A stretch of DNA of 45,458 bases from Candidatus Berkelbacteria bacterium (GCA_009885355.1 VFKW01000035.1:1-45458), one strand, 5' to 3'; shown: positions 1 to 20,489, counted from the first letter of the stretch. Made by a program: numbers and translations. Notes: a model not told the origin generated them from the letters alone.

Positions 1-1151
1 CTATCAGATGGTTGATACACATCTACTTCAAGAGCGTATGAAACCACCGTTGGAGTCAAGCCATCGTTCTGATCAACATCTTCCATCATAAGATGTGGAT
101 CATCGCCATTAGCCGGGTTGTTGCTGCTTAATGGCGCCCATTTTGTAGAAGAAAAGTTCGCAATACCTGTCAGACCGGAGTATTGAGTTGTATTATAACC
201 CAACCAGCCGGTATTAGCATTTTTAGTCGGTGCGGTTGGCGAAGTCCAGACTTGTGGAGTTGTCGCATTTGCCGCATTTCCAGCATAAGGATCAATATTA
301 TTTCCAGCGACCGACGTTCCTGTTAATGGTGTTGTCATTAGACCATAAACTATAAATCCATTATTAGCGTTGGTCCTCACCGTCAAACTGTGCGCCAATA
401 ATCTGATTGCATTTGGCGTCAAGGTCAAAAATGGAAGTGTATTGTAAGTTGAATCATTTGTTGTGTCATCTGTACCGTTTGCATCACCAACGGCTGTGGC
501 AACTGCAACTCCTGCTACGACAAATGTCAAAGCTGGATCAATTTTTGCCGTCATTGTCACATCAGCGGTAATATCATAAGTCAAAACTACATTATCTTTC
601 TTTTGACCATCAAGCATGCCTTCATTGTTCCAAGTTTGGATTTCGATAAAACATGTACCAGCCGATAAATTTCCATTGCCGGTCCCGGCATTGTTTGTAC
701 TTGTACAACCTGGAGTAACATCTCCACGCTGGGAAATATCCGGATTGACAATTCCATCCATGGTCCACTCAAGGGCTGCACCACTGGCAATTTCAGCTCC
801 TGCGGCATTTATCAATGTGATACCGGTTGAGATTGTGGAAACATCAGCTGTCCAATCCCCTACAACACCTGAATTTATAGCAAATAATGATGCTCCTAAA
901 ATGTCCAGTGAAGTTGGTGTCGTTCCACCTGTTGCCGCACTTTTCCAGTTCATTCTGATAGCTTTAACATTATGGGTTGAACCCAATGTCATCTTAAAGA
1001 TATATTTCGATCCAACTACTGGTTTTGGATTTGAAAGTCGGACACTTGCATTACCCATCAGTGCCGCTTGTGCCTGTATTGGCATGTAGAAACCAGCTAC
1101 CGTCATAAACGTTATGACAGCAACTAAAGCCTTGTGAAAATGTTTTTGCAT
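1..1151 (-). CDS. Secreted surface protein, N-terminal 383 codons (C-terminus lies beyond the left window edge)
   Basis: Absent from the supplied ORF track, probably because it is open at the window edge. Minus frame checked by hand: ATG at 1151-1149, GGAGGAG (complement of 1155-1161) just upstream, and no stop codon down to base 3. The N-terminus MQKHFHKALVAVITFMTVAGFYMPIQAQAA looks like a signal peptide. The body is T/N/G/A-rich. No family recognised. Confidence 0.75.
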   Translation of the reverse strand, partial: MQKHFHKALVAVITFMTVAGFYMPIQAQAALMGNASVRLSNPKPVVGSKYIFKMTLGSTHNVKAIRMNWKSAATGGTTPTSLDILGASLFAINSGVVGDWTADVSTISTGITLINAAGAEIASGAALEWTMDGIVNPDISQRGDVTPGCTSTNNAGTGNGNLSAGTCFIEIQTWNNEGMLDGQKKDNVVLTYDITADVTMTAKIDPALTFVVAGVAVATAVGDANGTDDTTNDSTYNTLPFLTLTPNAIRLLAHSLTVRTNANNGFIVYGLMTTPLTGTSVAGNNIDPYAGNAANATTPQVWTSPTAPTKNANTGWLGYNTTQYSGLTGIANFSSTKWAPLSSNNPANGDDPHLMMEDVDQNDGLTPTVVSYALEVDVYQPSD

Positions 1152-1398: not shown

Positions 1399-3982
<2,584 letters not shown>

Positions 3983-3995
3983 TTAGAGCTTCTCC

Positions 3996-5822
3996 TTAGG
4001 TTTTTGGTGCTGTTGTCGCCTCGGGCGCCTTTGACTTATCCACAGCCTCATCTGGCTTTGCTTCTTCTTTCTTTTCTGGACTTTCAGGTTTTTTATCATC
4101 TCCGGCCGCCCCTTCAACAGGTGCCGTGCTTGTCGGCTTTACTTGCGCCGCGATTACCTTATCATATTCAATTTTTAGTGATTTTGCTACCGGCGTGTCA
4201 TTTTCGGCTATAAATTTGACTAAAAAATCCTTCAACGGCGACAAATCTTTGTCATCTACCTTTTTAGTACTTGTTCTCTCGGTTAATACACTAAATTGGT
4301 CTATTTTTTTTCGATAAAAATCCACCAATTCAATCTTTAATTTTGCCACCAAATCTAAAGCTAAATAATCAATATAGCCTTCACAAGTCACAAAAAGTAA
4401 AATTGTTTCTTCCGTCGGCGTAAAATTTAATCCCGATGCTTGGTTGAAAAATTCCAAAATTCTTTTGCCGCGATTGATTTCTTTTTCTGTTTCTTGGGTG
4501 ATTTCCGTATTCATCGTCTCATAAGATTTCACTTCATTATAACGAGCCAATTGCGAACCGGCCATGCTGCCGTAATTTCTCAAAATTTTTGGCTGGATAC
4601 TTCCGCCGATACGAGAAACCGACGAGCTCGAATTTACCGCCGGCAATATACCATCGTGCAGCATCTGACTGTCAAGATAAATATGTCCGTCCGTGATCGA
4701 CATCAGATTTGTTGTTATATATTCTGAAATATCTCCATTTTGCGTTTCGCAAAGCGGCAAGGCTGTGATCGAGCCTCCGGTAAATTCAGTCGCCACCTTC
4801 GCGCTTCTTTCCAATAATCTGGAATGTAAATAGAAAATATCACCAGGATAGGCATCTCTACCAGGAGAGCGTTTTAAAAGTAGCGACATTTGACGATAAG
4901 CTTTGGCATGTTTTGATAAATCATCATATATAACCAGCGCATCTTTGCCCAAATCGCTAAAATATTCAGCGATTGCCGTTCCGGCGTAAGGCGCTAAATA
5001 ATTTAATGATGGCGGATCATCTGAACTCCCCATCACAATTGTTGTATATTCAAGCGCTCCATGCTTTCCCAAATACTGCGAAAAAGCCTTCACTTTTGCC
5101 TTTTGTCCTCCGATTGTCACATAAATACAGTAGATATTTTGACCTTTTAAATTACAAATAATATCTGCCATCAGGCGGGTTTTCCCGGTTTTTCTATCCC
5201 CAGTTACTAGTTCTCTTTGCCCGCGGCCAATCGGGATAATCGAATCAACCACCAAAAAACCGGTTTTCAATTGATCAATAATCGGTGTTCTCATATAAAC
5301 CGGCGGCGCCGGCCGTTCCACTTCCATCAATTTCGAGCCTCGAATTACTCCTTTGCCATCCAGTGGCTTGCCGATAGGAGAGATCACTCTTCCCAAAACT
5401 CCATTACCAGCCGGTATTTTTAAAGTTTTTTGCGTTGAAATTACCATATTACCTTTTTTGACTCCAAAATAATCACCCAAAACCACAGTTTCTACTAGGT
5501 CGCTTGAGATGCCAAGGACCAATACCAAAACATCGCCCCCCTCGTCCGTTTTGATTTTTAGCACATCATCAATCCGGGCATTTGACAGCCCGATAATTTT
5601 ACAAATCCCATCCCCGATATATATAACCTCGCCCACTTCCAAAATTTCAGGAGTAAGCTCGGCCTCGGGAAGTGATTTTTCCAGCATCTCGGTGATTTTT
5701 GATTGACTATCTCGGTCTTTTTTTATTATTTTTAAATCAATTCCCTCGAGTTCATCTTTCAAAAAATCTTCAATACTTCCAATCATCTGTTTTACCCTGC
5801 TTTCTGAATTGATTTCTTCCAT
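3996..5822 (-). CDS. atpA: F-type ATPase alpha subunit with N- and C-terminal extensions
   Basis: 608 aa with Walker A GDRKTGKT and an alpha-type core (..VIYDDLSKHAKAYRQMSLLLKRSPGRDAYPGDIFYLHSRLLERSAK..). It is about 100 aa longer than a typical alpha. The ATG at 5786 (M13) is an alternative start. Confidence 0.93.
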   Translation of the reverse strand: MEEINSESRVKQMIGSIEDFLKDELEGIDLKIIKKDRDSQSKITEMLEKSLPEAELTPEILEVGEVIYIGDGICKIIGLSNARIDDVLKIKTDEGGDVLVLVLGISSDLVETVVLGDYFGVKKGNMVISTQKTLKIPAGNGVLGRVISPIGKPLDGKGVIRGSKLMEVERPAPPVYMRTPIIDQLKTGFLVVDSIIPIGRGQRELVTGDRKTGKTRLMADIICNLKGQNIYCIYVTIGGQKAKVKAFSQYLGKHGALEYTTIVMGSSDDPPSLNYLAPYAGTAIAEYFSDLGKDALVIYDDLSKHAKAYRQMSLLLKRSPGRDAYPGDIFYLHSRLLERSAKVATEFTGGSITALPLCETQNGDISEYITTNLMSITDGHIYLDSQMLHDGILPAVNSSSSVSRIGGSIQPKILRNYGSMAGSQLARYNEVKSYETMNTEITQETEKEINRGKRILEFFNQASGLNFTPTEETILLFVTCEGYIDYLALDLVAKLKIELVDFYRKKIDQFSVLTERTSTKKVDDKDLSPLKDFLVKFIAENDTPVAKSLKIEYDKVIAAQVKPTSTAPVEGAAGDDKKPESPEKKEEAKPDEAVDKSKAPEATTAPKT

Positions 5823-6334
5823 TGACTAGTTAATATATTCATCCTGGTCTTTAATGAATAATCCAATATAAAATTATCTTTTTTAATAATTGCCCCACCC
5901 AGAATATTTTTATCGACTTTTAGTTGAATTACGACCTTTCTTTCCATTTTTTTGGAGAGTTTGTCAGTCAAATTTCGGGTATCTTCGTCATTTAATTCTA
6001 TTGCCGCCGTTAAATTGAAAAAAACTATCTTGGCCGAAATTTCTGCAAATTCATCTGAAAACGTTTTAAAATGCCCCGGATCAAACAGCCAAAGATCGCC
6101 CTTTTTAATCAATTCTTCAAAATAATTTCGAAGAGAGTCCGTCTCAATATTTTCCAGATTTGACTCTACTAAAATTCGTCTTTTATCTGTCTCATCTCCT
6201 GAGGATTTAACCACCGAATTATATCCGATCTTGTCGGAAAATATCGATAAATCAAAAGAGATTTGCTCTAATTCGTCTTTTCTATAGATCAAATCTAAGA
6301 TCGCCTTCAAATATTTTTCGATCTCACTTGTCAT
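5792..6334 (-). CDS. atpH: F-type ATPase delta (OSCP) subunit
   Basis: 180 aa, positioned between b and alpha, with a delta-like C-terminus (..VDKNILGGAIIKKDNFILDYSLKTRMNIL..). Confidence 0.85.
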   Translation of the reverse strand: MTSEIEKYLKAILDLIYRKDELEQISFDLSIFSDKIGYNSVVKSSGDETDKRRILVESNLENIETDSLRNYFEELIKKGDLWLFDPGHFKTFSDEFAEISAKIVFFNLTAAIELNDEDTRNLTDKLSKKMERKVVIQLKVDKNILGGAIIKKDNFILDYSLKTRMNILTSQWKKSIQKAG

Positions 6335-6839
6335 CGTTTATCTCGCCTTCAACTTCTAAAAATGCTTTTTCGATCAGTTCTCTGTGGTCTTCATAAGTCA
6401 AACTTTTTGCCAAAACTTTTTTTGCCACTCCCATCACCAAGTCAACCATTTTTGTCTGCACTTCTTTTTTCTGTTCTTCTAGAAAATTATCCGCTTCTTC
6501 TTTTACATCTTCTTCGATTTTCTTCGCTTTTTCTTGTGCTTTTTTAATGATCTCGTCTGCCTGGCTCTTATCAATTATTACTTCTTTTGGTTTATTGAGT
6601 CTTTCCCGCAATATTTGTCGGTGCTTGTCTTCCAAGTCCTGAACAATCGATTTTAATTTTGCAATCTCTTTTTTTTCTCTAGCTTTTCTCTCTGCGATCT
6701 GTTGCAAATACTTTTCTTTTATTTCATGCAATTTCTTTTCGGCGATTTGTTGGATCTTTTTTTCTCGGTAATTAAAATAATAGCCTAAGAGAAATAGACA
6801 AACTCCGGTAATTGCTAAATTGGTAAATAAAACGTTCAT
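6324..6839 (-). CDS. atpF: F-type ATPase b subunit (peripheral stalk)
   Basis: 171 aa with one N-terminal TM helix (NLAITGVCLFLLGYYF) followed by a long K/E-rich helix. GGAGGGG lies between the upstream TAG (6858-6860) and ATG 6839. Confidence 0.85.
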   Translation of the reverse strand: MNVLFTNLAITGVCLFLLGYYFNYREKKIQQIAEKKLHEIKEKYLQQIAERKAREKKEIAKLKSIVQDLEDKHRQILRERLNKPKEVIIDKSQADEIIKKAQEKAKKIEEDVKEEADNFLEEQKKEVQTKMVDLVMGVAKKVLAKSLTYEDHRELIEKAFLEVEGEINDDK

Positions 6840-6857
6840 CTTTCCCCTCCAAATTTT

Positions 6858-8936
<2,079 letters not shown>

Positions 8937-8960
8937 TCAAATATTTCCCCAACCGCAAAT

Positions 8961-9107
8961 TAGTAGTTAGTAGTTGGGAGTTGGTAGCTAGGGGAATGCC
9001 GACGACATTGCCACAAAAAACTAGTGTTGCTCCATATCGTTTAGAATCGTCAACAAAACTTTAAACGGCCCCACAACTACTATCTACTAACTACCAGCTA
9101 CTACTAG
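8961..9107. repeat. TAG/CTA-rich imperfect inverted repeat pair
   Basis: The left arm TAGTAGTTAGTAGTTGGGAGTTGGTAGCTAGGGG (8961-8994) and right arm CCCCACAACTACTATCTACTAACTACCAGCTACTACTAG (9069-9107) are imperfect reverse complements about 74 nt apart. The right arm overlaps the stop codon of the 9104..10342 gene. Confidence 0.65.
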
Positions 9108-10342
9108 GTTTGCCAGAAGAACATCATAATACTGAAGTCGATTAGATTAACAAGACCGTCATTATTTATATCAGCCAATGGACTTGTTGACGCCCAGTAA
9201 TAAAGCAGGATAGAAAAATCCGTTAAATTGGTGCGGCTATCACAACTCAAATCGCCTTGGGATATGTCACAAGCCGGGTCTCCATCGGGCGGATCAACTG
9301 ACGGATCAACTACTTTAAAATTCAAACTAAAACTAAATAAGCTTTTATTGCCGATATTATCATGAACAAGTGTATATAGTACATGGTCCCCCAACTCAAA
9401 ATCATTTGTATTTGTCAGTGTATAACTGTAAGATCCATTGCTGGCAACTGTGTCTTCATAGCTTTGCAATGGCGGCTCTGTATAAGTAGTCAATCCCCAA
9501 TCTGAAATACTAATACCACTAGCAGTCAAAGGTTCTCCCCTTGTTATTTCAGTTTTATCAAGCTCAATTGTCGGTGGGATTATTATGCCGCTTACCTGGG
9601 TAACTATATAAGGCTGGATAAACATTCGAATTTCAACCGATGGCGTATAACGATCACGGAAATCAGTTCCATAGACCAATATTAAATGTTCATTTGGAGA
9701 AAAACCTGACATTAGTTGGGAAAAAGCGCCAGCGCCGTCAGATAGACAAGTGCCAATATTTACATTATTTTCTGTAAATGCTATCAGCATATTTGGACCG
9801 GCCTGGCCAGATACTATTATTTGTCCGTTATTTGCCGGTACCTCTGCTCGCACAATAACCGATCCATCTGTACTGGTTGCTAATATATGTGCTCGATTAT
9901 AGGTTATAGCTCCGTTTGCATCTGGTGAAATTTTAATATAGACATCAAACGCTCCCGGAATTGAAGGATTTTTTGCACGCAGATCATTTATACTTAAATA
10001 ATTATCAGGCAATAATTCGATCCCGGTAATTGTTAATGTATTGCCATTAATAGTATATTCAGGTGTTCCAGTAAAGCCACCTCCAAGGAATATTGGTGCT
10101 TGTACATTTGAAAAATATACGAAGTTAATTATCAAATAATCATCCACATGAAGAGTTTGCGAACCGGTTGGTAAACCAAAACGAATGTTATGCATAGCAA
10201 ATGCTTCCGGTGTATCATTGGAAATAATATCTTTTGGTGCATCAAGATAATCAATAGTAGCCGCTTTTACAAGCGGCAGTCTTGGGATAAGCACGCAAAT
10301 TAAAAGTGCTATCGATATAAATTTGGCAAACTTAAAATTCAC
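9104..10342 (-). CDS. Secreted protein with C-terminal dockerin-like repeats
   Basis: 412 aa, starting at GTG 10342 with GAGAGGGG upstream, with a signal peptide (..LPLVKAAT). The C-terminus ..DLSCDSRTNLTDFSILLYYWASTSPLADINNDGLVNLIDFSIMMFFW contains two dockerin/EF-hand-like segments. Confidence 0.8.
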   Translation of the reverse strand: MNFKFAKFISIALLICVLIPRLPLVKAATIDYLDAPKDIISNDTPEAFAMHNIRFGLPTGSQTLHVDDYLIINFVYFSNVQAPIFLGGGFTGTPEYTINGNTLTITGIELLPDNYLSINDLRAKNPSIPGAFDVYIKISPDANGAITYNRAHILATSTDGSVIVRAEVPANNGQIIVSGQAGPNMLIAFTENNVNIGTCLSDGAGAFSQLMSGFSPNEHLILVYGTDFRDRYTPSVEIRMFIQPYIVTQVSGIIIPPTIELDKTEITRGEPLTASGISISDWGLTTYTEPPLQSYEDTVASNGSYSYTLTNTNDFELGDHVLYTLVHDNIGNKSLFSFSLNFKVVDPSVDPPDGDPACDISQGDLSCDSRTNLTDFSILLYYWASTSPLADINNDGLVNLIDFSIMMFFWQT

Positions 10343-10420
10343 AATAAATGCCCCTCTCTAACTAGATTATCATTTTTTTTATATAAATAACAGGCGTTTT
10401 AATGCATCCTTAGCTATGGA

Positions 10421-10470
10421 TAGAATATAGAAAAATAAGAGCCCGTAAGCTCTTATTTTTCTATATTCTA
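10421..10470. terminator. Long perfect hairpin downstream of the 10491 gene
   Basis: A perfect 22-bp stem TAGAATATAGAAAAATAAGAGC / GCTCTTATTTTTCTATATTCTA with the 6-nt loop CCGTAA, lying 20 nt beyond the 10491 stop codon. Confidence 0.6.
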
Positions 10471-10490
10471 GGTTCTATATATTCTAAATT

Positions 10491-11426
10491 CTATTTAGTC
10501 AGATTATGCAACATCTTTTTGACATTCTTTCGTCCGGTGATCATAGCTACCAGTAAGATGATTACAATTACTATGATCGCTATTAGATATTTTGGGAAGA
10601 CAATAAACGCTGTAGTTGCCGATAAAGATTTTCCATCATTTTGCCCATATTTTGCAACCAAAGTTGCTGTATATCGATTTGCCAACATTCCTTTTGGTTT
10701 CCACACGGTTTCCATCTTTCGAATTGCTCCTGGTAATACATTCAATCCATTTAGATCGATTTGAGCTACTTTTTGGCCAAACATATTTGTAATTACGATC
10801 GTACCTTTTGGTCGAACGTGGTTATTACCAGTATCTTTTACTCGAAGATCAAGTGAAATAGGCCCTTTTTCATAATAATTTTTAGTTGTTTTAAATGAAG
10901 CAACGTTCGCTTCCTCTTTAACATTTCCAGATACTCGAAGTAAGATAAGTGATCCAACACGACTACTAACCGAAGCACCACTCTTAACTTCGCCGCCACC
11001 CATTACTACTAAAATCGAACCATAATGTCCGCCTGGTTCAGCATTTTTTGGTACATTAATTGAAAATGGAATTTCTTTTTCTTGTCCGGCAGCAAGTGTA
11101 AAAGTTTTAGGTTCTGGAAATACCCATTTGGATAATGAATAAGTTGTACTAGATTGACCATCGTCAATTAAAGCTACCCCGCCTTCTTCGCCGACTGCTT
11201 TAAAATCATCAACTATAATAGAGTATTTTGTTTCACTACCGGAATCATTTCTTACCTTGATTTTATCATTCAAGCTATCGCCTGGATTAGCATAAAGCTC
11301 AAAAGAAGGTGGTATGACCGTAATTCCTCTACCGCTTGTATCAGCCGCACTCACAAAAGACGGCGTGCCGAATAAAAATACCAGTGTACAAGCTCCTGCC
11401 AGGACAATTATCATCCTTTTTAGCAT
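10491..11426 (-). CDS. Cell-surface protein with C-terminal TM anchor (DUF916/DUF3324-like, tentative)
   Basis: The ORF opens at 11471, but AAGGAG sits 5 nt before ATG 11426 (MLKRMIIVLAGACTLVFLF..SAAD signal peptide), giving 311 aa. It has a C-terminal TM helix (YLIAIIVIVIILLVAMI) plus a basic tail. The architecture and the ..VIPPSFELYANPGDS..KVRNDS.. region recall DUF916/DUF3324 surface proteins. Confidence 0.7.
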   Translation of the reverse strand: MLKRMIIVLAGACTLVFLFGTPSFVSAADTSGRGITVIPPSFELYANPGDSLNDKIKVRNDSGSETKYSIIVDDFKAVGEEGGVALIDDGQSSTTYSLSKWVFPEPKTFTLAAGQEKEIPFSINVPKNAEPGGHYGSILVVMGGGEVKSGASVSSRVGSLILLRVSGNVKEEANVASFKTTKNYYEKGPISLDLRVKDTGNNHVRPKGTIVITNMFGQKVAQIDLNGLNVLPGAIRKMETVWKPKGMLANRYTATLVAKYGQNDGKSLSATTAFIVFPKYLIAIIVIVIILLVAMITGRKNVKKMLHNLTK

Positions 11427-11637
11427 AGAAACTCCTTTATAGCTTCTTACAATTATCATCATATATAACAATGATATAAATTAATATTAATCTTGTCAAA
11501 TAAAAACCATCTATTAACAAAGATCCCTTGGATCTTACATCAAGTATTTAAACCAAAATACCATTCCAGCTAATAATAAGAGTATTTTTAGTAAATGTCA
11601 AATTTTTATGCATATTTTTATTAAATAGTTCGCAAAA

Positions 11638-12666
11638 TTAGCTTTTTAAAATCGATAATTTACTTTTTTCTTCAGTGGTTAATTCGTTTTTAGCTTGCTC
11701 AAATTCTTGGATTATTCTCTCTTTGCCTCCCTCAACTTTCTGATCTACCAGGTCAAGCTTGCTTTCCAAAGAGGAAAGTGTTCCCAAATGGCTGTCAAAT
11801 AGATGCACAAGCTCTAAGTGCCTTTTCTTCTCTGTAAAATACAGTTTAATCGCCAAATTTACGACCAGTACAATTAATAATACTGTTGGCAATAAGCCAT
11901 AATATAATGGATTTTTAAAAGCTGAACCTTTGACAGATACTTTTGTGTTATCTTCTGAAGCTTTCAAAACATCTTCTTTGTTTGCTCCTGATCGTCCATT
12001 AACTTGTTTTAAGGATCCTTTTATTCTGCCGGGCACAGTATTGATATTTTTCAAAATCGGAATTGTCATCGCGTCATTACTTGGTTTCAATCCGCTTTCC
12101 TCTGGTGCGATTTTTTCCGGCGGTCCGCTTGCGGAAGCTGCCTCGCCAGTAGATGTGTCAGTCGGTGTTTGCCCCACACCGTAAGTATTTATTGACAAGG
12201 TCTTTACTGTAAAACCTTCGACTTGTGCTCCGGTCGGTCCGTATCTGGCCTCAAAATTCTTAATTTCGATCAAGGCCGTGCCAGCCGTTTTTACCTTGAA
12301 AACTAAAGTAGTGATCAGTCCTATTCCTGTAAAGCCTGCCTTGCCTACAATTCCACATTCATAGCGTGTTGCCGATTGTGTTCCTCCTGGCATCGGTAAA
12401 ACTGATCCACTGTTGCTTGGCGAATTTGACTCTGCTTGTAAAATTTCCGTCGGGTATGAAATATCAAATCCTACCGCTCCAACTGGATCAGTGCCGGTGT
12501 CGATATTTATTTTAACTTCGAGCTTTTGGCCGACTTCAACTGAACTCATCGATGGCATCAAAGTAACTTCTTTAGCCGCCGCCAATGTTTCAAGCGGCGA
12601 CAAAAATATCGCCCCCAAAATCGGTAGCAACAAAATCACGCAGATTTTTCTGGCTAAATTTATCAT
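11638..12666 (-). CDS. Cohesin-like surface protein with TM helix and cytoplasmic coiled-coil tail
   Basis: 342 aa with a signal peptide and the cohesin-like module ..VEVGQKLEVKINIDTGTDPVGAVGFDISYPTEILQA... A TM helix (LLPTVLLIVLVVNLAIKLYF) is followed by a ~70-aa helical tail. There is an ATGA start/stop overlap with the upstream gene. Confidence 0.75.
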   Translation of the reverse strand: MINLARKICVILLLPILGAIFLSPLETLAAAKEVTLMPSMSSVEVGQKLEVKINIDTGTDPVGAVGFDISYPTEILQAESNSPSNSGSVLPMPGGTQSATRYECGIVGKAGFTGIGLITTLVFKVKTAGTALIEIKNFEARYGPTGAQVEGFTVKTLSINTYGVGQTPTDTSTGEAASASGPPEKIAPEESGLKPSNDAMTIPILKNINTVPGRIKGSLKQVNGRSGANKEDVLKASEDNTKVSVKGSAFKNPLYYGLLPTVLLIVLVVNLAIKLYFTEKKRHLELVHLFDSHLGTLSSLESKLDLVDQKVEGGKERIIQEFEQAKNELTTEEKSKLSILKS

Positions 12667-13223
12667 ATCCCCGCTTTGATCTTTATACTCACAGTATCCA
12701 AATCCTTCAATAAATTGGTTCCCTTACCGTCATTTGCCAACACCATACTCTGTTTACTAACCTTCAAATCGGTCGTTTTTATCGCTTTTGTTAAAAATTC
12801 GATCGTCTGCATCGTATTTTTCCCTTTAAATCCAGGGTAAGGCGTGCCGCAGGCTAGTTTTATCAAACCTTTTTCATTACTATAGCTATTTTCCGGATAA
12901 AATTTGCAAAAAGATTCAGTCGTATCATTTTTTATAACTTGCAGGACGCGCGGATCAAATTCAATATAGCTTTGGGCTGCATTTATATAATAATTATGAG
13001 TATCAACAATTATCTTCGCTTTAAAAGTTTTTCCCACTCCGCTTATTTCTGTCGGTGCTTCGATCGTCAAGGTCGAATTACTCTTATTGACCTGGGTTTT
13101 ATTCCAATCCACCCTCACTTTTGGATTTGGTTTAAAAAATAACGCATAAATAATAATTCCTGCTAATATTAAAACCAGCAAAAATTGCTTCTTGATAAAG
13201 TCTAGGATGATATCTTTATTCAC
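12663..13223 (-). CDS. Membrane-anchored cohesin-like protein
   Basis: 186 aa, starting at GTG 13223 with AGGAG about 8 nt upstream. It has an N-terminal TM anchor. ..GKTFKAKIIVDTHNYYINAAQSYIEFDPRVLQV.. is a weaker cohesin-like match. Confidence 0.65.
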   Translation of the reverse strand: MNKDIILDFIKKQFLLVLILAGIIIYALFFKPNPKVRVDWNKTQVNKSNSTLTIEAPTEISGVGKTFKAKIIVDTHNYYINAAQSYIEFDPRVLQVIKNDTTESFCKFYPENSYSNEKGLIKLACGTPYPGFKGKNTMQTIEFLTKAIKTTDLKVSKQSMVLANDGKGTNLLKDLDTVSIKIKAGI

Positions 13224-13393
13224 TTTTCGTTCTCCTATTTAAAAATAATAAAAAACTGGTTCAATTTAATTTTAAATCAATTTCCAGTTTATTTATCGCC
13301 CTCCTAGCTTATATTGTTATTAATACTATTATAAAGTAAACAAGCGTCTTTTGCCAATATCCCTGTGCAACAATTCAGCTCTTTTGTGATTTA

Positions 13394-13508: not shown

Positions 13509-15041
13509 ATGATAATAAAACTGCGCAAACATAAATTCATATTTCTCCATACTGGTAAGGTGTTGGCGGGAGCTTTTTTAATTGCTTTAACGATTTTTTC
13601 CTATACTTTTGGCAAGAGTATTTCTCCAAAAAATAATACCCCTTCCATTCAAAAAAAGAATTATGTAAAAATAACACCAACCCCAACCCCAGTTCAAGTT
13701 GCTGCAATTCAAGAAGCCATAAAAAAAGATCCTTCCCAATCCCCGGTTGTTCCCAAAAAAGCCATTGCCAATAAAAAATCTTTTACCGGCAAGACAACTA
13801 CCAATTCCGATGGCACCAAAACAACCAGCGGGGGAGAAGGCGGCAGCTCTCCGGAATTAAATAGTTTATCCCCAAGCGGTGTCAACAACCCTTTAAATAT
13901 TAAAATTGAGGATAAAACCGGAAGCTATCCTTTGCTTATTACTCCGCTCAAAGATTATCTCAATACCTTGAAATGGTCCACCGAAATTGCCACCCTCGCT
14001 GACATTGAGATCGTTGACGTCGGCGACACCGGCTGGGCTGGCCAATATTCTTTTTCATATAATCAAAACCAATCCGGTCAAGTCACCTCTCTGGTCGGCC
14101 TCATCAAGCTCAATGTTTTTTACAGTAAAGATAAATCATATTTTACCGACTATATGAAACTCGTTTTATCCCATGAATACGGCCATCACTACACTCAGTA
14201 TTATAAATTATTCAAATGGAAACTGCTTTCCGGTACTCGTTTTCCCGATCAATATTACGCCATCAGGCCTCTGACCAAAGTCACAACTACTTTTGATTAT
14301 TCTCTCAATTGGGAAAATTGCGATGCCGAGATCATCGCCGAAGACTACTCCTATATATATTCCGGCTATAGTTATCATGGCATGAGCGAAAAATACGGTT
14401 ATCCAGCCTCTCCAGCCATCTCCAATTGGCTCGCCAATGACCTGCCAGGTGGACCAGGCGCTTCTCCAGTGGTTCCAGTAGTTACTCCGACTGATAATCC
14501 TCCGACGATCAATATCACCTCGCCTGTGGATAACTCAACCGTTTCTAGTAATATTACGATCCAAGCTACCGCCAGCGATGACCATGCTGTCTCAAAAGTC
14601 GCCTTTTATATCGGAGATATTCGTATTTTGGAAAAAACCTCCATCCCTTACGAAGCTACTTTCAATTCCGGTGCCTATGATAATATTTCGTATTCTATCC
14701 GTGCCATCGCCACCGATGACGCCAATCATTCAACCACCGCTACTATTAATTTAACTTTCAATAACATCAAACCGATCATCACCATCAACAGTCCCAACAA
14801 CGATCCATATACCTGGACCACCGGCGATCTCACCATCGACACCTCTGCCCAAAGCGAAAACAGCGTATCAAAAATCGAAATTTATATAAATGATCAATTA
14901 GGTATCACCAGAAATACAGATCATCTTGCAGCAGTCTGGTCATCATCAGGTGTTTCCGCCGGAACTTATGATATTAAAATAAAAGCTTACGATCAAAATG
15001 GAAATATCGGTACAAAAACATTTAAAGTCATCAAACAATAG
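13509..15041 (+). CDS. Membrane-anchored HExxH zinc metalloprotease-like protein with two C-terminal Ig-like repeats
   Basis: 510 aa with a TM helix (VLAGAFLIALTIFSYTF), a P/T/K-rich linker and LVLSHEYGHHY (HExxH). There are two Ig-like repeats (..INITSPVDNSTVSSNITIQATASDDHAVSKVAFYIGD.. and ..ITINSPNNDPYTWTTGDLTIDTSAQSENSVSKIEIYIND..). The start codon is uncertain. Confidence 0.75.
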   Translation: MIIKLRKHKFIFLHTGKVLAGAFLIALTIFSYTFGKSISPKNNTPSIQKKNYVKITPTPTPVQVAAIQEAIKKDPSQSPVVPKKAIANKKSFTGKTTTNSDGTKTTSGGEGGSSPELNSLSPSGVNNPLNIKIEDKTGSYPLLITPLKDYLNTLKWSTEIATLADIEIVDVGDTGWAGQYSFSYNQNQSGQVTSLVGLIKLNVFYSKDKSYFTDYMKLVLSHEYGHHYTQYYKLFKWKLLSGTRFPDQYYAIRPLTKVTTTFDYSLNWENCDAEIIAEDYSYIYSGYSYHGMSEKYGYPASPAISNWLANDLPGGPGASPVVPVVTPTDNPPTINITSPVDNSTVSSNITIQATASDDHAVSKVAFYIGDIRILEKTSIPYEATFNSGAYDNISYSIRAIATDDANHSTTATINLTFNNIKPIITINSPNNDPYTWTTGDLTIDTSAQSENSVSKIEIYINDQLGITRNTDHLAAVWSSSGVSAGTYDIKIKAYDQNGNIGTKTFKVIKQ

Positions 15042-17611: not shown

Positions 17612-18703
17612 TTATTTTTGTAAATAATCTTTCAATCGGCTGCTGTCTTCGTGTTTTTTCAATTTTTGCAGTGCTTTTGCCTCGATCTGTCGGATACGTT
17701 CACGCGTCACGCCGAATTCTTTGCCCACTTCTTCTAGTGTGTGAGTTTTACCGTCTTCCAGCCCAAATCTCATCTTTAAAATTCTTTGTTCGCGAGGTGA
17801 TAAATAACGTAAAAATTCTGTAATATGGCCTTTGAGCAATTGATAAATCGCCGATTCCTCAGGCGACATACTGTCTTTGTCTTCCAAAAAGTCGCCCAAG
17901 CGGGAATCTTCTTCTTCGCCAACCGGTGCTTCCAATGATACTGTTTCTTGGGAAATTTTCAAGATATTTTCCACTTTATCAATCTCGATGCCCATCTCCG
18001 CAGCGATCTCTTCTGGTAATGGTTCGCGGCCCAAATCTTGTACCAGTTGTCGTTGGACTCTGATCAATCGGTTGATTGTTTCAACCATATGCACAGGAAT
18101 ACGGATTGTTCTAGCTTGGTCGGCAATCGCTCTGGTGATCGCTTGTCGGATCCACCAGGTCGCATAAGTTGAGAATTTAAAACCTTTATGATAATCAAAT
18201 TTTTCAACCGCCCTTAAAAGTCCGGTATTGCCTTCTTGGATCAAATCCAAAAGTGACAATCCGCGCCCGATGTATTTTTTAGCAATCGATACTACCAAAC
18301 GCAAATTTGCCTCAGCCAATTTCTTTTTGGCTGTCTCATCACCTTGCACGATTCTCTTGGCCAATTTGATCTCTTCTTCACTATTTAATAGTGAGATTCG
18401 GCCGATTTCCCTCAGATACATTCGAACAGAATCATCCGAAATATCTGAAACTTCCGGCAATTTTTCTTTTTTTTCTTGACCTGGAATTTCCAAAAGTCTT
18501 TTTGGCTCGCGTATTTCAATTCCTTGTCGGTTTATATATTCATAAAAAGCATCTACCGTTGCGACATCTTCTTCCGCATCGGGCATTGCTTGTTCGATTT
18601 CCTGATATGTCACAAAACTATGCGCTTTGCCTTTATCGAGCAACGCTTGTAATGCTTCTGGGAAATCCAGTTCTATTTCTTGTTTAATTATCTTTTTCGC
18701 CAT
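17612..18703 (-). CDS. rpoD: RNA polymerase primary sigma factor
   Basis: The ORF opens at 18721, but GGAGG plus 9 nt precede ATG 18703 (MAKKIIKQ..). Region 2 is ..[31 protein letters not shown].. and region 4.2 is ..[24 protein letters not shown]... Confidence 0.95.
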
Positions 18704-20489
18704 TTTTAATACCTCCTGCACTCTGGAGAAATGTTTGCAATTGAGAAAGGAGCTCTTTCACTTTCTTTCTATCACCTGATTCTTCAGCTTCGCCGATTGC
18801 TCGGGCAAAGTCAAGTTTTTGGTTTTCGTGATAGTTTAAGCTTAGATGTTCCAAGGTCTGATTTATTGCAGATTCAATTGTCGCATTATCTTCGCCGGCC
18901 TCCAGCTCGTTTTTTGGATTCATCGAGCTGTCTATTATTTTTTTCAAAATCTCTTGATCAGCCTCATTTAAATTTTTGCGAAGATAGGAAATTAATTCTT
19001 TTTGAACATTTTCAGAAATAATAACAGCCTCATTATACCAGATTTTTATCATCTTTACAATTGTAATGTATGTATTGGTGAAATGTTTTTCATTAATTTT
19101 CCCGATAAATTCTTTTCCAAGCCCCGGGTTATTGATCAATTGTCCAATCAGTTCTCCTTGCAGGTCCAATTTTTCAATCTTTTTTATCTCCTCGCCAACT
19201 GGTTCACTCGGCTTTTTTGATGCATATTTATCTTGCTTGATCGATCCTTTTAAAATCTCGACAGTTACTGACAATCTATTGGCCAATTTTTGCAAATAAT
19301 GTTGCTTTTCCACACTGTCAGCAATTTGATTAATAATCGGCAGCAATTTTGCCGCAATCTGTTTTTTTTGTGTCCCGTTCAAAGACATTTCATCTCCAAC
19401 CATCGAAAATGCCCGATCAAAATGCCATTGCACAGCCGGAATCGCCTTTTTGATCAGCTCAGGCCACATTTGGGGTACTTTTTCGATCACTTCTCCCGCG
19501 TCTTTGAACTCGGCCGGCAGCACGCAGACATCGGCTGTATAATTTTCCCGCAGGCAAATTTCGATCACTTTTTCCGTCGCCTTTTGGCCCGCCTCGTCAT
19601 TATCAAACGCCAAAACAAAGCGCTGCGCATAGCGATACATTATCCTAAAATGATCTTCCGTCACCGCTGTTCCTGACGAAGCGACCACATTTTCCACTCC
19701 CGCTTGGTGCGAAGCGATCACATCCATCTGCCCCTCGACAAAGATGATTGAGCCTTTTTGACGAATCGCCATTTTGGCATTATTTAGTCCATACAAGGCG
19801 CGGCTTTTATGAAATAAAGCAGTCTCAGCCGTATTTAAATATTTTGGTCCCGGTCCGTCGGGAAATTCCCGTCCGGTAAATGCAATTGTCGTCCCCATCG
19901 GATCTGCAATTGGAAACATAATTCGCTTATAAAATCGTTCCGGCTTTCCAGCTGCCGCAATCTCTGATTCCCGAAATCCGCGCTTGACCAGAAAATCTCC
20001 CAAACCTCGTTTTTCCGGCGCAAATCCAATTCTGAACTTTCGGATCATCTCCTCAGAAATGCCTCTTTTTTTCAAATACTCCAGCGCCCCTTTGCCAAGC
20101 TCGTGATTGAGTAAAATCGTTTGAAAATATTTACTGGCCAGTTCATTTATATTGAGCAGTCTATTTTTGTCGTCTTTTTTCTCTTGTGTCGGCTCAAATT
20201 TATCTTCGATTTTGACCCCGGATCGATCGGCCAAAAACCTGATCGCCTCTGGGAAATTCAATCCTTCCATCTTTATTACAAAGCCGAAAATATCTCCCCC
20301 CTCATTGCATCCAAAGCATTTATAGATCTGTTTTTCCGGTGAGATCATAAACGAGCCGGTTCTTTCTTCGTGAAAAGGGCAAAGCGCTTTAAAATTCGCG
20401 CCCGCTTTTCTCATCGTCACATAATTTGAAATCAGATCGACAATATCCACTCGCCGTCTGATTTCCTCCAATTCTTGCTCACTCGCCAT
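18684..20489 (-). CDS. dnaG: DNA primase
   Basis: 601 aa with the CHC2 zinc finger [25 protein letters not shown] and TOPRIM motifs ..[11 protein letters not shown].. and ..[12 protein letters not shown]... It is in the dnaG-rpoD arrangement and overlaps the rpoD start. Confidence 0.95.

What the first reader, a model, noticed from the sequence alone, without database searches (positions are those of the whole stretch)
9104..13223. Cohesin-like / dockerin-like surface protein set directly upstream of, and co-directional with, the atypical ATPase operon
Four consecutive minus-strand genes encode the following:
- a TM-anchored cohesin-like protein;
- a secreted cohesin-like protein with a TM helix and a ~70-aa cytoplasmic coiled-coil tail;
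- a DUF916-like C-terminally anchored protein;
- a secreted protein ending in two dockerin-like repeats (..ADINNDGLVNLIDFSIMMFFW).

No glycoside hydrolase is present, so this is not a cellulosome. It looks like a self-assembling surface scaffold. The cytoplasmic tail of the 11638..12666 protein offers a possible link to a cytoplasmic partner. With the Ig-like/c fusion and the secreted protein at 1..1151, the whole 13-kb block is exported proteins plus an ATPase. A functional connection is inference from adjacency and shared strand only.
Basis: partly seen in the sequence, partly recalled or inferred. Interest (0 to 1): 0.6.

Follow-up and report, generated by a model that had tools for sequence, protein, structure and literature searches.

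The report
Cohesin-dockerin anchor of CPR pilus locus
The four genes are real cohesin, dockerin and chaperone-like surface genes of an ultra-small (CPR) bacterium. They most likely clip the base of a thin "Pam-type" surface fibre to the cell membrane, and in this lineage the fibre genes are wrapped around an odd ATPase operon without a proven functional tie.

Summary
**Observation: confirmed.**
- 12663-13223 is an N-terminally anchored cohesin. Its model has pLDDT 90, and its 50 best PDB matches are all cohesins.
- 11638-12666 encodes a signal peptide, a cohesin, a Pro/Thr-rich linker, a TM helix and a conserved 67-aa cytoplasmic tail.
- 10491-11426 is a two-domain, C-terminally anchored homologue of WxLIP (DUF916).
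- 9104-10342 is the genome's only dockerin protein.

**Interpretation: partly supported.**
- It is not a cellulosome.
- The set is the anchoring part of a module that is widespread in CPR: pilin-like genes, a DUF916 chaperone, a dockerin protein and membrane cohesins. The module matches the Pam donor-strand-exchange pilus (Troman 2026). That paper mentions neither cohesin nor dockerin.
- Here the dockerin protein has a pilin-like N-terminal domain and a copy of the pilin linker strand (VTV[ST]AT[VI]). It therefore looks like a chain terminator that plugs into the cohesins.

**ATPase link: real as genomic association, unproven as function.**
- All 22 genomes with the long-form dockerin protein carry the c-fusion ATPase.
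- The blocks are adjacent in several different orders, but 20-29 kb apart or on separate contigs in others.
- Short-form modules occur without the ATPase.
- The ATPase's constant neighbour is the pilin gene, not this set.

This scan reached the pilus-anchor reading before, on at least 64 other genomes.

The parts
12663..13223 (-). D_coh: 186-aa type-II membrane protein. An N-terminal TM helix (residues ~14-32) is followed by one extracellular cohesin module (residues ~48-183).
   Evidence: Pfam gives 22.5 bits. Six of 9 orthologues hit PF00963. The AF2 model has pLDDT 90. Foldseek's top 50 matches are all cohesins. TM scan.
11638..12666 (-). C_cohTM: signal peptide, cohesin (residues ~33-155), Pro/Thr-rich stalk, TM helix (257-275) and a 67-aa conserved helical cytoplasmic tail. 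Its start overlaps the D_coh stop by 4 nt.
   Evidence: PF00963 scores 24.5 bits, above the cut-off. hhalign against the D_coh family gives E 1e-29. The orthologue alignment shows a conserved tail motif, R-x-x-x-L-x-x-L-F...LE-x-K-L/M-D-L. TM scan.
10491..11426 (-). WxLIP / DUF916-type two-domain protein with a signal peptide and a C-terminal TM helix. It is the candidate membrane-anchored pilus chaperone (PamC/D-like, ElrE-like). The ORF runs up to a TTG at 11471, but the ATG at 11426 fits the orthologues.
   Evidence: PF06030 scores 31 bits, above the cut-off. The family profile matches PDB EfmWxLIP1 at E 5e-7 over residues 43-268. Thirty of 35 orthologues hit PF06030.
9104..10342 (-). A_doc: 412-aa secreted protein. 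It has a signal peptide, a beta-sandwich N-terminal domain (30-155), a low-confidence conserved strand (160-169), two Ig-like domains (173-345) and a dockerin (359-410).
   Evidence: The AF2 model has pLDDT 89.5. Foldseek matches tandem-Ig adhesin stalks. Pfam families Big_6 and Big_13 hit orthologues.
9113..9268 (-). Dockerin module of A_doc: two Ca-loop plus helix segments, GDLSCDSRTNLTDFSILLYYW and ADINNDGLVNLIDFSIMMFFW.
   Evidence: PF00404 hits. The family profile matches PDB dockerins, with 2y3n_B at E 1.1e-8. Invariant D/N columns. Predicted helices 373-381 and 400-410.
9836..9865 (-). Conserved strand of A_doc (GSVIVRAEVP; family consensus GSVTVSATI[P/E]) that mimics the linker (donor) strand of the pilin-like family. 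It is the candidate donor strand.
   Evidence: pLDDT is below 50 at residues 161-169, yet the columns carry 2.7-3.1 bits of information. The pilin-family linker consensus is DVTVTATVDP. In short-form orthologues the strand sits near the mature N-terminus.
9869..10258 (-). Pilin-like N-terminal beta-sandwich domain of A_doc, present only in the long form of the protein.
   Evidence: hhalign of the A_doc family against the Sec383 family gives E 1.2e-8. Without signal peptides it gives E 3.2e-5 and probability 73%, spanning the whole domain plus linker.
3..1151 (-). Sec383: two-domain secreted pilin-like protein, a candidate Pam-type pilin, cut by the contig end. It lies directly downstream of the ATPase operon.
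   Evidence: Family alignment A7. It follows the ATPase in every c-fusion genome examined. It has no Pfam or PDB sequence match.
1399..8900 (-). Atypical F-type ATPase operon (c-fusion, b, delta, alpha, gamma, beta, epsilon). It lies between the dockerin gene and the pilin-like gene. This is context, not part of the cohesin-dockerin set.
   Evidence: Earlier notes e1-3356565, e1-3356567 and e1-3356568.
8931..9107 (-). Intergenic region between the A_doc stop and the c-fusion start. It holds a long imperfect inverted repeat (~25 bp arms, ~74-nt spacer), then an extended -10-like TGATACAAT (8931-8939) and a ribosome-binding site AAGAGGGG. This suggests the ATPase operon has its own promoter.
   Evidence: Sequence read directly. 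Fold: where the z-score of the whole stretch is not significant. The consensus promoter scan did not list this site.
13328..13357 (-). Promoter-like site (TTGGCA, 18-nt spacer, TATAAT; 11 of 12 matches) upstream of D_coh.
   Evidence: This is a consensus match only.

Best explanation
The four genes encode the membrane-anchoring and assembly part of a CPR surface-fibre system of the Pam / WxL donor-strand-exchange kind.

**Shown.**
- D_coh and C_cohTM display cohesin modules outside the membrane. One is on an N-terminal anchor. The other is on a Pro/Thr-rich stalk with a C-terminal anchor and a conserved cytoplasmic tail.
- A_doc is the only dockerin protein in the genome.
- The DUF916 protein is a two-domain, C-terminally anchored homologue of WxLIP, the family shown to be the membrane chaperone of the Elr pilus.

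**Inferred.**
- The Sec383-type proteins are the fibre subunits. The DUF916 protein chaperones them.
- A_doc has a pilin-like N-terminal domain and a pilin-like donor strand, but two complete Ig domains and a dockerin where a pilin has its acceptor domain. It would insert its strand into the last pilin, stop growth, and plug the fibre base into the membrane cohesins in a Ca-dependent way.
- A_doc would thus do the job of PamR (TM-anchored) or ElrB (sortase-anchored). No sortase was found in this genome.
- The ATPase operon is a lineage-specific genomic companion of the pilin genes. Physical or energetic coupling is not shown.
For: - **Cohesin fold:**
- **Dockerin:**
- **Uniqueness:** one dockerin locus, and D and C are the only clear cohesins in the genome.
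- **WxLIP homology over both domains, plus TM helix:**
- **Conserved order DUF916 > dockerin gene > cohesin gene(s):** seen in 7 relatives and across 56 CPR loci. Thirty-eight of 52 loci with enough flank have a cohesin gene within 2.2 kb downstream of the dockerin gene, and four more have it upstream.
- **Prevalence:** about 30 of 301 evenly sampled Patescibacteria genomes carry an Ig-Ig-dockerin homologue.
- **Pilin-like domain and strand:** the A_doc N-terminal domain plus linker is homologous to the pilin-like family. Both families share the strand motif VTV[ST]AT[VI]. In A_doc it is conserved but modelled with pLDDT below 50. A loose form of the motif occurs only 8 times in about 404,000 residues of this genome.
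- **No rival anchoring route:** no sortase and no PF13731 WxL protein were found in the genome.
- **Literature:**
  - PMC13278184 describes Pam pilins as an N-terminal domain, a linker donor strand and a truncated Ig domain. It describes TM-anchored chaperones, and a terminator, PamR, made of an N-terminal strand, two FnIII domains and a TM helix. It reports that ATP synthase genes co-localise with the pam operon.
  - 10.64898/2026.10.17.759780 shows that the DUF916/DUF3324 protein ElrE is a membrane chaperone and that ElrB is a donor-strand base subunit.
Against: - No Pam protein sequence or structure was on hand. Homology of Sec383 to PamA or PamB is inferred from architecture, size pairs (~369 and ~590 aa against 38.7 and 55.3 kDa) and context only. 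The Sec383 profile hits nothing in Pfam or in PDB sequences.
- No complex prediction could be run. Dockerin-cohesin pairing, and insertion of the strand into a pilin groove, are both untested.
- The shared strand is short and of a common beta-strand type. I noticed the match post hoc.
- In this window's own copy the [ST] position of the motif is Arg.
- hhalign without signal peptides gives only 73% probability.
- In several relatives the cohesin pair lies 11-56 kb from the dockerin gene or on another contig.
Confidence: 0.55

Rival explanations
1. Stand-alone adhesin display. A_doc is simply an Ig-like adhesin or spacer held on the membrane cohesins by its dockerin. The DUF916 protein and the Sec383-type proteins are separate surface proteins, and no fibre is built.
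For: The A_doc model resembles the tandem-Ig stalks of giant adhesins such as MpIBP, SiiE and Bap. Non-cellulosomal cohesin-dockerin pairs that merely tether proteins are known; Foldseek matched the C. perfringens and Archaeoglobus fulgidus cohesins. Sec383 has no detectable sequence match to any pilin family.
Against: The dockerin gene sits immediately after the DUF916 gene wherever both were detected in the closer relatives. The A_doc N-terminal domain plus linker is homologous to the pilin-like family. The published Pam and Elr systems give DUF916-like chaperones a fibre-assembly role.
Confidence: 0.2
2. One machine with the ATPase. The cohesin-dockerin-pilus module is physically coupled to the ion-blind F-type ATPase. 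The cytoplasmic tail of C_cohTM, or the coiled-coil TM protein, would contact the stator or F1. ATP hydrolysis would then move, rotate, extend or release the surface fibre.
For: All 22 genomes with the long-form A_doc have the c-fusion ATPase. The blocks stay adjacent in several different orders: Z-Y-X in the window, L035-L037 and L042; X-Y-Z in L044, L046 and L054; Y-X...Z in the CPR2 genomes; convergent in G061. Pilin genes always follow the ATPase. The cytoplasmic tail of C_cohTM is conserved. PMC13278184 reports ATP synthase genes next to pam operons.
Against: The evidence is adjacency only, and the genomes are kin. The set and the ATPase are 20-29 kb apart in G061 and G062, and on different contigs in G063-G065. 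Short-form modules work without any c-fusion (G026, G052, G053 and Parcubacteria-type loci), and only 7 of 25 loci with 8 kb or more on both flanks have an ATPase. The c-fusion ectodomain shows no similarity to any module family and carries no dockerin or cohesin. A hairpin and an extended -10 element separate the two units.
Confidence: 0.12
3. Cellulosome-like polysaccharide-degrading complex, or a Csc-type carbohydrate-utilisation complex.
For: Cohesin and dockerin modules are present. The DUF916 (CscA) family was first proposed to act in carbohydrate use (PMC1534035, listed).
Against: There is one dockerin in the genome and it is on an Ig-like protein. No glycoside hydrolase or CBM was found among the neighbours or in 56 related loci.
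Confidence: 0.02

Closest known systems
Pam pilus of Candidatus Mycosynbacter amalyticus (Troman et al. 2026, PMC13278184): PamA/B/E/T pilins, PamC/D chaperones, PamR terminator-anchor
   Same: Both are CPR-restricted. Both have secreted two-domain subunits with a conserved inter-domain linker strand, in pairs of about 38 and 55-60 kDa. Both have two-domain chaperone-like proteins with a C-terminal TM helix. Both have a terminator built from a strand plus two Ig/FnIII domains. ATP synthase genes lie next to the operon in both.
   Different: Here the terminator candidate has no TM helix. It ends in a dockerin, and two membrane-anchored cohesin proteins are encoded beside it; the paper mentions neither cohesin nor dockerin. 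The long form also carries a pilin-like N-terminal domain. The neighbouring ATPase is the c-fusion type without an a subunit. Direct homology to the Pam proteins could not be tested here.
Elr / WxL (Csc) pilus clusters of Bacillota (Sleutel et al. 2026, 10.64898/2026.10.17.759780; Hassan et al. 2023, PMC10599100)
   Same: The DUF916 protein is a sequence homologue of WxLIP over both domains and has the same C-terminal TM helix. The logic is the same: a membrane chaperone, secreted subunits, and a base subunit that has a donor strand and a C-terminal anchoring device.
   Different: There is no PF13731 WxL protein, no LPxTG protein and no sortase. Anchoring would be non-covalent, through cohesin-dockerin. 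That paper reports the system as confined to Bacillota, based on RefSeq sampling.
Cell-surface anchoring of cellulosomes by cohesin-dockerin pairs (anchoring scaffoldins of Clostridium/Acetivibrio) and non-cellulosomal pairs (C. perfringens glycoside hydrolases, Archaeoglobus fulgidus)
   Same: The cohesin has the same jelly-roll fold, and the dockerin is a duplicated Ca-loop module. In both cases the pair is used to tether a protein to the cell surface.
   Different: The cohesins are anchored by TM helices rather than SLH domains or sortase. There is a single dockerin and no enzymes. The cargo appears to be a fibre base.
Chaperone-usher pilus terminators (PapH type)
   Same: Both involve a pilin-derived subunit that can donate a strand but cannot accept one, which ends growth and anchors the fibre. 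This is an analogy from established knowledge and was not tested here.
   Different: There is no usher and no outer membrane. Termination would come from replacing the acceptor domain with Ig domains and a dockerin.

Membership tests
Cohesin (PF00963) | Match to the family HMM at or above the gathering score | tested here: met
   C_cohTM scores 24.5 bits against a cut-off of 24.1. D_coh scores 22.5, just below it, but 6 of 9 orthologues match with best E 1.5e-7. D and C are homologous by hhalign, E 1e-29.
Cohesin (PF00963) | Nine-stranded beta-sandwich (jelly-roll) cohesin fold | tested here: met
   The D_coh AF2 model has pLDDT 90.1. Foldseek's top 50 PDB matches are all cohesins of types I, II and III, with E from 2e-8 and TM-score up to 0.81. 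C_cohTM was not modelled.
Cohesin (PF00963) | Binds a cognate dockerin | not testable with these tools
   No multimer prediction or binding assay was available.
Dockerin type I (PF00404) | Two tandem ~22-residue segments, each a Ca-binding loop (D/N at positions 1, 3, 5, 12) followed by a helix | tested here: met
   The loops are D364-S366-D368...D375 and D391-N393-D395...D402, followed by helices 373-381 and 400-410.
Dockerin type I (PF00404) | Match to the family HMM at or above the gathering score | tested here: inconclusive
   hmmscan gives 19.5 bits against a cut-off of 22.9. The six-frame search gives 22.7 for the match and 24.6 with neighbours in the frame. Seven of 9 orthologues match, best E 8e-9. 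The family profile matches the solved dockerin 2y3n_B at E 1.1e-8.
Cellulosome | Dockerin-bearing glycoside hydrolases assembled on a multi-cohesin scaffoldin | tested here: not met
   The genome has one dockerin locus, on an Ig-like protein. Each cohesin protein has one cohesin. No GH or CBM hits were found among the neighbours.
WxLIP / DUF916-DUF3324 membrane chaperone (CscA, ElrE) | PF06030 domain, a second Ig-like domain and a C-terminal TM helix | tested here: met
   PF06030 scores 31 bits against a cut-off of 27.3. The family profile aligns to EfmWxLIP1 residues 23-253, which covers both domains, at E 5e-7. The TM helix is at 295-313. PF11797 itself was not hit.
WxL / Elr pilus system | WxL-domain (PF13731) pilin within 10 kb of the chaperone | tested here: not met
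   PF13731 gives no match in the whole genome at E up to 1, and none in 22 Sec383-family members at E up to 10.
WxL / Elr pilus system | LPxTG base subunit and sortase anchoring (optional in that paper's definition) | tested here: not met
   PF04203 (sortase) gives no match in the genome, which is 93.8% complete.
Pam pilus system (CPR) | Two-domain pilins homologous to PamA/PamB, with a linker donor strand and a truncated Ig C-terminal domain | tested here: inconclusive
   The Sec383 family has two domains with a highly conserved linker (DVTVTATVDP) and a conserved C-terminal domain. Size pairs fit. The profile found nothing in PDB sequences.
Pam pilus system (CPR) | Membrane-anchored two-domain chaperones (PamC/D) | tested here: met
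   The genome has three DUF916-type copies: C10, C156 and C146. Architecture as above. Equivalence to PamC/D is by description only.
Pam pilus system (CPR) | PamR-type terminator with a C-terminal TM helix | tested here: not met
   A_doc has the strand and two Ig domains, but it ends in a dockerin and has no C-terminal TM helix.

The most novel reading that the evidence does not exclude
The pilus module and the ion-blind, subunit-a-less F-type ATPase form one apparatus. ATP-driven rotation or conformational work of the c-ring, with its extracellular Ig arms, would act on a Pam-type fibre that is held beside it by cohesin-dockerin anchors. The conserved cytoplasmic tail of C_cohTM, and the coiled-coil TM protein, would serve as links to the stator. 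If so, this would be an F-type motor repurposed to move, extend or shed a surface fibre.
Probability: 0.12. Interest if true: 0.95.

Novelty: new variant of a known kind. Interest (0 to 1): 0.6.

Why it matters
CPR/Patescibacteria are mostly episymbionts that must hold on to a host cell. Pam pili are the first fibres of theirs to be solved.

A fibre whose base is fixed non-covalently, by a dockerin plugged into membrane cohesins, would be a use of the cohesin-dockerin pair not described for any pilus. It would also replace both the sortase route (Elr) and the TM-helix route (PamR).

It gives simple tests: Ca/EDTA-dependent pull-downs of three small domains in E. coli.

The CPR DUF916 proteins also show that the WxLIP chaperone family reaches beyond Bacillota.

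The long-form terminator co-occurs strictly with the c-fusion ATPase. In addition, "ATP synthase next to pam" is already published but read there as ATP production. Together these make the odd ATPase a concrete candidate partner worth an experiment.

Tried and rejected
1. **Cellulosome reading.** Rejected: one dockerin and no enzymes.
2. **Sec383 as a WxL protein.** I saw a motif resemblance from memory (Y-x-G-x-L-x-Y...P at the C-terminus). PF13731 finds nothing in the genome or in 22 family members, and the profile finds nothing in PDB. It remains an untested lead.
3. **c-fusion ectodomain related to pilins, A_doc, cohesins or DUF916.** hhalign probabilities were 0.1-6.5%, so rejected. Its "SVTITATAV" strand is the end of an ordinary Ig domain and does not fit the motif.
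4. **Cohesin profiles against PDB sequences.** These gave only weak hits, E 0.08-0.16. Structure comparison was needed to settle the fold.
5. **First related-loci run with the 9-sequence alignment.** It failed because no stretch was conserved enough. I repeated it with 4 sequences.
6. **Terminator scan.** It found nothing after A_doc. The long hairpin there does not fold better than shuffles as a whole stretch.
8. **Direct comparison with PamA, PamB and PamR.** No tool gave access to those sequences.
9. **Literature search for cohesin, dockerin and CPR together.** It returned nothing relevant.

Full report
**Anatomy**

The window is contig C10 of a 1.26-Mb, 188-contig genome that is 93.8% complete. 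Its closest named relatives at this locus are CPR2, Berkelbacteria and Microgenomates-type MAGs.

On the minus strand the gene order is as follows:
- D_coh, 13223-12663
- C_cohTM, 12666-11638, overlapping D_coh by 4 nt
- the DUF916 gene, 11426-10491
- A_doc, 10342-9104
- a 203-nt spacer
- the ATPase operon, 8900-1399
- a secreted 383+ aa protein (Sec383), 1151-3, cut by the contig end

**Checking the four domain calls**

Single-sequence Pfam hits are marginal. The cohesins score 24.5 and 22.5 bits against a cut-off of 24.1. The dockerin scores 19.5 against 22.9. DUF916 scores 31.1 against 27.3.

Family-level and structural evidence settles them:
- **D_coh.** The model has pLDDT 90.1. Its 50 best PDB matches are all cohesins, with E from 2e-8 and TM-score up to 0.81.
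- **C_cohTM.** Its cohesin is homologous to D's, hhalign E 1e-29.
- **A_doc dockerin.** The family profile hits solved dockerins, with 2y3n_B at E 1.1e-8. Seven of 9 orthologues hit PF00404. The Ca-loop Asp/Asn positions are invariant or nearly so in 37 orthologues.
- **A_doc overall.** The model (pLDDT 89.5) is a string of a beta-sandwich domain, a low-confidence linker, two Ig domains and a two-helix dockerin. It resembles adhesin stalks.
- **DUF916.** The family profile aligns to solved EfmWxLIP1 over both domains, E 5e-7. Thirty of 35 orthologues hit PF06030.

This is the only dockerin locus in the genome. D and C are the only clear cohesins. A third, weak cohesin-like domain ends a 555-aa TM/dCache protein on contig C156.

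**Context in other genomes**

In 61 relatives the dockerin gene, a small cohesin gene and a cohesin-TM gene lie together in seven genomes. The DUF916 gene lies directly upstream of the dockerin gene in them.

A pattern scan of one genome per species found 56 loci, all CPR. Gene maps show a core order of DUF916 > dockerin protein > cohesin(s). Thirty-eight of 52 loci with enough flank have a cohesin gene within 2.2 kb downstream. Sec383-type genes often lie upstream.

In an even sample of 301 Patescibacteria genomes, about 30 carry an Ig-Ig-dockerin homologue. Only three carry the long form with the extra N-terminal domain.

**What the module is**

Two 2026 preprints bear on it:
[quoted passage not shown] It polymerises WxL pilins by donor-strand exchange. 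ElrB, which has an N-terminal donor strand and an LPxTG motif, forms the base.
- **Troman et al.** solved Pam pili of a CPR bacterium.
  - The pilins are an N-terminal beta-sandwich, a linker donor strand and a truncated Ig domain.
  - The chaperones are TM-anchored.
  - PamR is a terminator made of an N-terminal strand, two FnIII domains and a TM helix.
  - ATP synthase genes lie next to the operon.
  - The paper mentions neither cohesin nor dockerin.

The Sec383 family fits that description. It has two domains, a very conserved linker (DVTVTATVDP) and a conserved C-terminal domain. Pairs of about 369 and 590 aa occur in relatives, against 38.7 and 55.3 kDa for PamB and PamA. However, it has no Pfam or PDB sequence match, and I could not compare it with the Pam sequences.

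**The dockerin protein as a terminator**

- A_doc residues 160-169 are conserved (2.7-3.1 bits per column) yet modelled with pLDDT below 50.
- The family consensus there, GSVTVSATI, matches the pilin linker consensus.
- In short-form orthologues this strand lies just after the signal peptide, as in ElrB and PamR.
- A loose form of the motif occurs 8 times in about 404,000 residues of this genome.
- The N-terminal domain plus linker of the long form is homologous to the pilin N-terminal domain plus linker. hhalign gives E 1.2e-8, or E 3.2e-5 and 73% probability once signal peptides are removed.

A_doc therefore looks like a pilin whose acceptor domain is replaced by two complete Ig domains and a dockerin. 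It could donate a strand but not accept one.

The genome has no sortase and no WxL protein. Cohesin-dockerin docking to D_coh and/or C_cohTM is then the likely anchoring route. This step is inference.

**The ATPase link**

Call the three blocks X (ATPase plus pilin genes), Y (DUF916 plus A_doc) and Z (the cohesin pair). The arrangements seen are:

| Arrangement | Genomes or loci |
|---|---|
| Z-Y-X | window, L035, L036, L037, L042 |
| X-Y-Z, followed by a coiled-coil TM protein and a dCache/CHASE protein | L044, L046, L054 |
| Y-X, then Z 11-18 kb further on | two CPR2 genomes |
| Y-Z convergent with X, 20 kb apart | G061 |
| Y and X 29 kb apart, Z on another contig | G062 |
| Y and X on different contigs | G063-G065 |

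Every genome with the long-form A_doc that I examined has a c-fusion. That is 22 genomes: the window, L035-L039, L042, L044, L046, L054, L059/G045, G032, G061-G065 and G352-G356.

Genomes with only short-form modules lack the c-fusion (G026, G052, G053). Only 7 of 25 loci with 8 kb or more on both flanks hold an ATPase.

The ATPase is always followed by pilin-type genes. Its constant partner is therefore the pilin block, not the cohesin-dockerin set.

The genomes are kin, so these counts overstate independence.

The c-fusion ectodomain is unrelated to any module family. Between A_doc and the c-fusion lie a long inverted repeat and an extended -10-like element, which suggests separate transcription units.

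**The own genome beyond the window**

Contig C156 begins with 309 bp that are 94% identical to the start of C10 in reverse. It is probably the continuation of the window. It holds:
- a second pilin (369 aa)
- the 555-aa TM/dCache/cohesin-like protein
- a 619-aa protein with a coiled coil, a TM helix and an ectodomain, homologous to the protein that follows the cohesins in X-Y-Z genomes
- a second DUF916 gene

**Verdict**

It is incomplete on what the parts belong to, and unproven on the ATPase.

This scan had already reached the reading "Pam-type pilus with cohesin-dockerin anchor" on at least 64 other genomes. I reached it here from my own tests, and I took the lead to the Pam paper from note e1-1196119.

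New here:
- the pilin-derived long form of the dockerin protein
- its strict co-occurrence with the c-fusion ATPase
- the shuffled but often preserved adjacency of the three blocks

Noticed in passing
window 1-309 and own-genome contig C156 1-309: The two contig ends overlap in reverse orientation at 94% identity inside the pilin-like gene. This is probably an assembly break at a strain-variable or paralogous pilin, and C156 likely continues the locus. C156 holds a second pilin, a TM/dCache/cohesin-like protein, a coiled-coil TM protein, a second DUF916 gene and an aminoacyl-tRNA synthetase.
   Followed up: partly
own genome C26:5673-6851 (+) and C93:7882-8949 (-): Two further proteins match only the N-terminal domain plus linker of the pilin-like profile (profile positions 6-182 and 54-182) and have different C-terminal parts. 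Like A_doc, they may be donor-strand-bearing subunits with other cargo.
   Followed up: no
L044:7075-8166, L054:7084-8190, L059:1196-2284: The second pilin paralogue of the X-Y-Z genomes lacks the conserved VTVTATV linker strand in the alignment. These are candidates for tip subunits that accept a strand but do not donate one (PamT-like).
   Followed up: no
window 13509-15041 (+): This gene is transcribed divergently from D_coh. It encodes a 510-aa membrane-anchored protein with an HEYGH zinc-protease-like motif and two Big_7 Ig domains. In relative L042 the cohesin genes instead follow the homologues of 17612-20489 directly, so 13.3-17.5 kb looks like an insertion here.
   Followed up: no
L093:9117-13345, L094:8568-10769, L091:7317-11152: In genomes where the blocks are dispersed, one to three other genes lie between the ATPase operon and the pilin genes. 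They are a protein O-mannosyltransferase-like gene (TMEM260/PMT_2), a TrwB/HerA-like P-loop ATPase gene and a TPR protein gene. The glycosyltransferase could modify the Pro/Thr-rich stalks or the pilins.
   Followed up: no
L027:1389-2573, L028:14609-15817, own C156:3675-5534: A conserved bitopic protein follows or precedes the cohesin pair in many genomes. It has a cytoplasmic coiled coil, a basic stretch, one TM helix and an extracellular domain of about 190 aa. Its function is unknown, and it is a possible cytoplasmic partner of the C_cohTM tail.
   Followed up: partly
window 8931-9107: A long imperfect inverted repeat made of TAG/CTA-rich arms lies between the dockerin gene and the ATPase operon. 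It is followed by TGATACAAT (an extended -10-like element) and a strong ribosome-binding site. Note e1-3356569 already flagged the repeat.
   Followed up: partly
literature: Sleutel et al. report the DUF916/DUF3324 chaperone family as confined to Bacillota, with a small Actinomycetota satellite, based on RefSeq proteomes. Clear homologues (PF06030 above its cut-off, profile match to EfmWxLIP1) are common in CPR MAGs, which RefSeq largely omits.
   Followed up: partly
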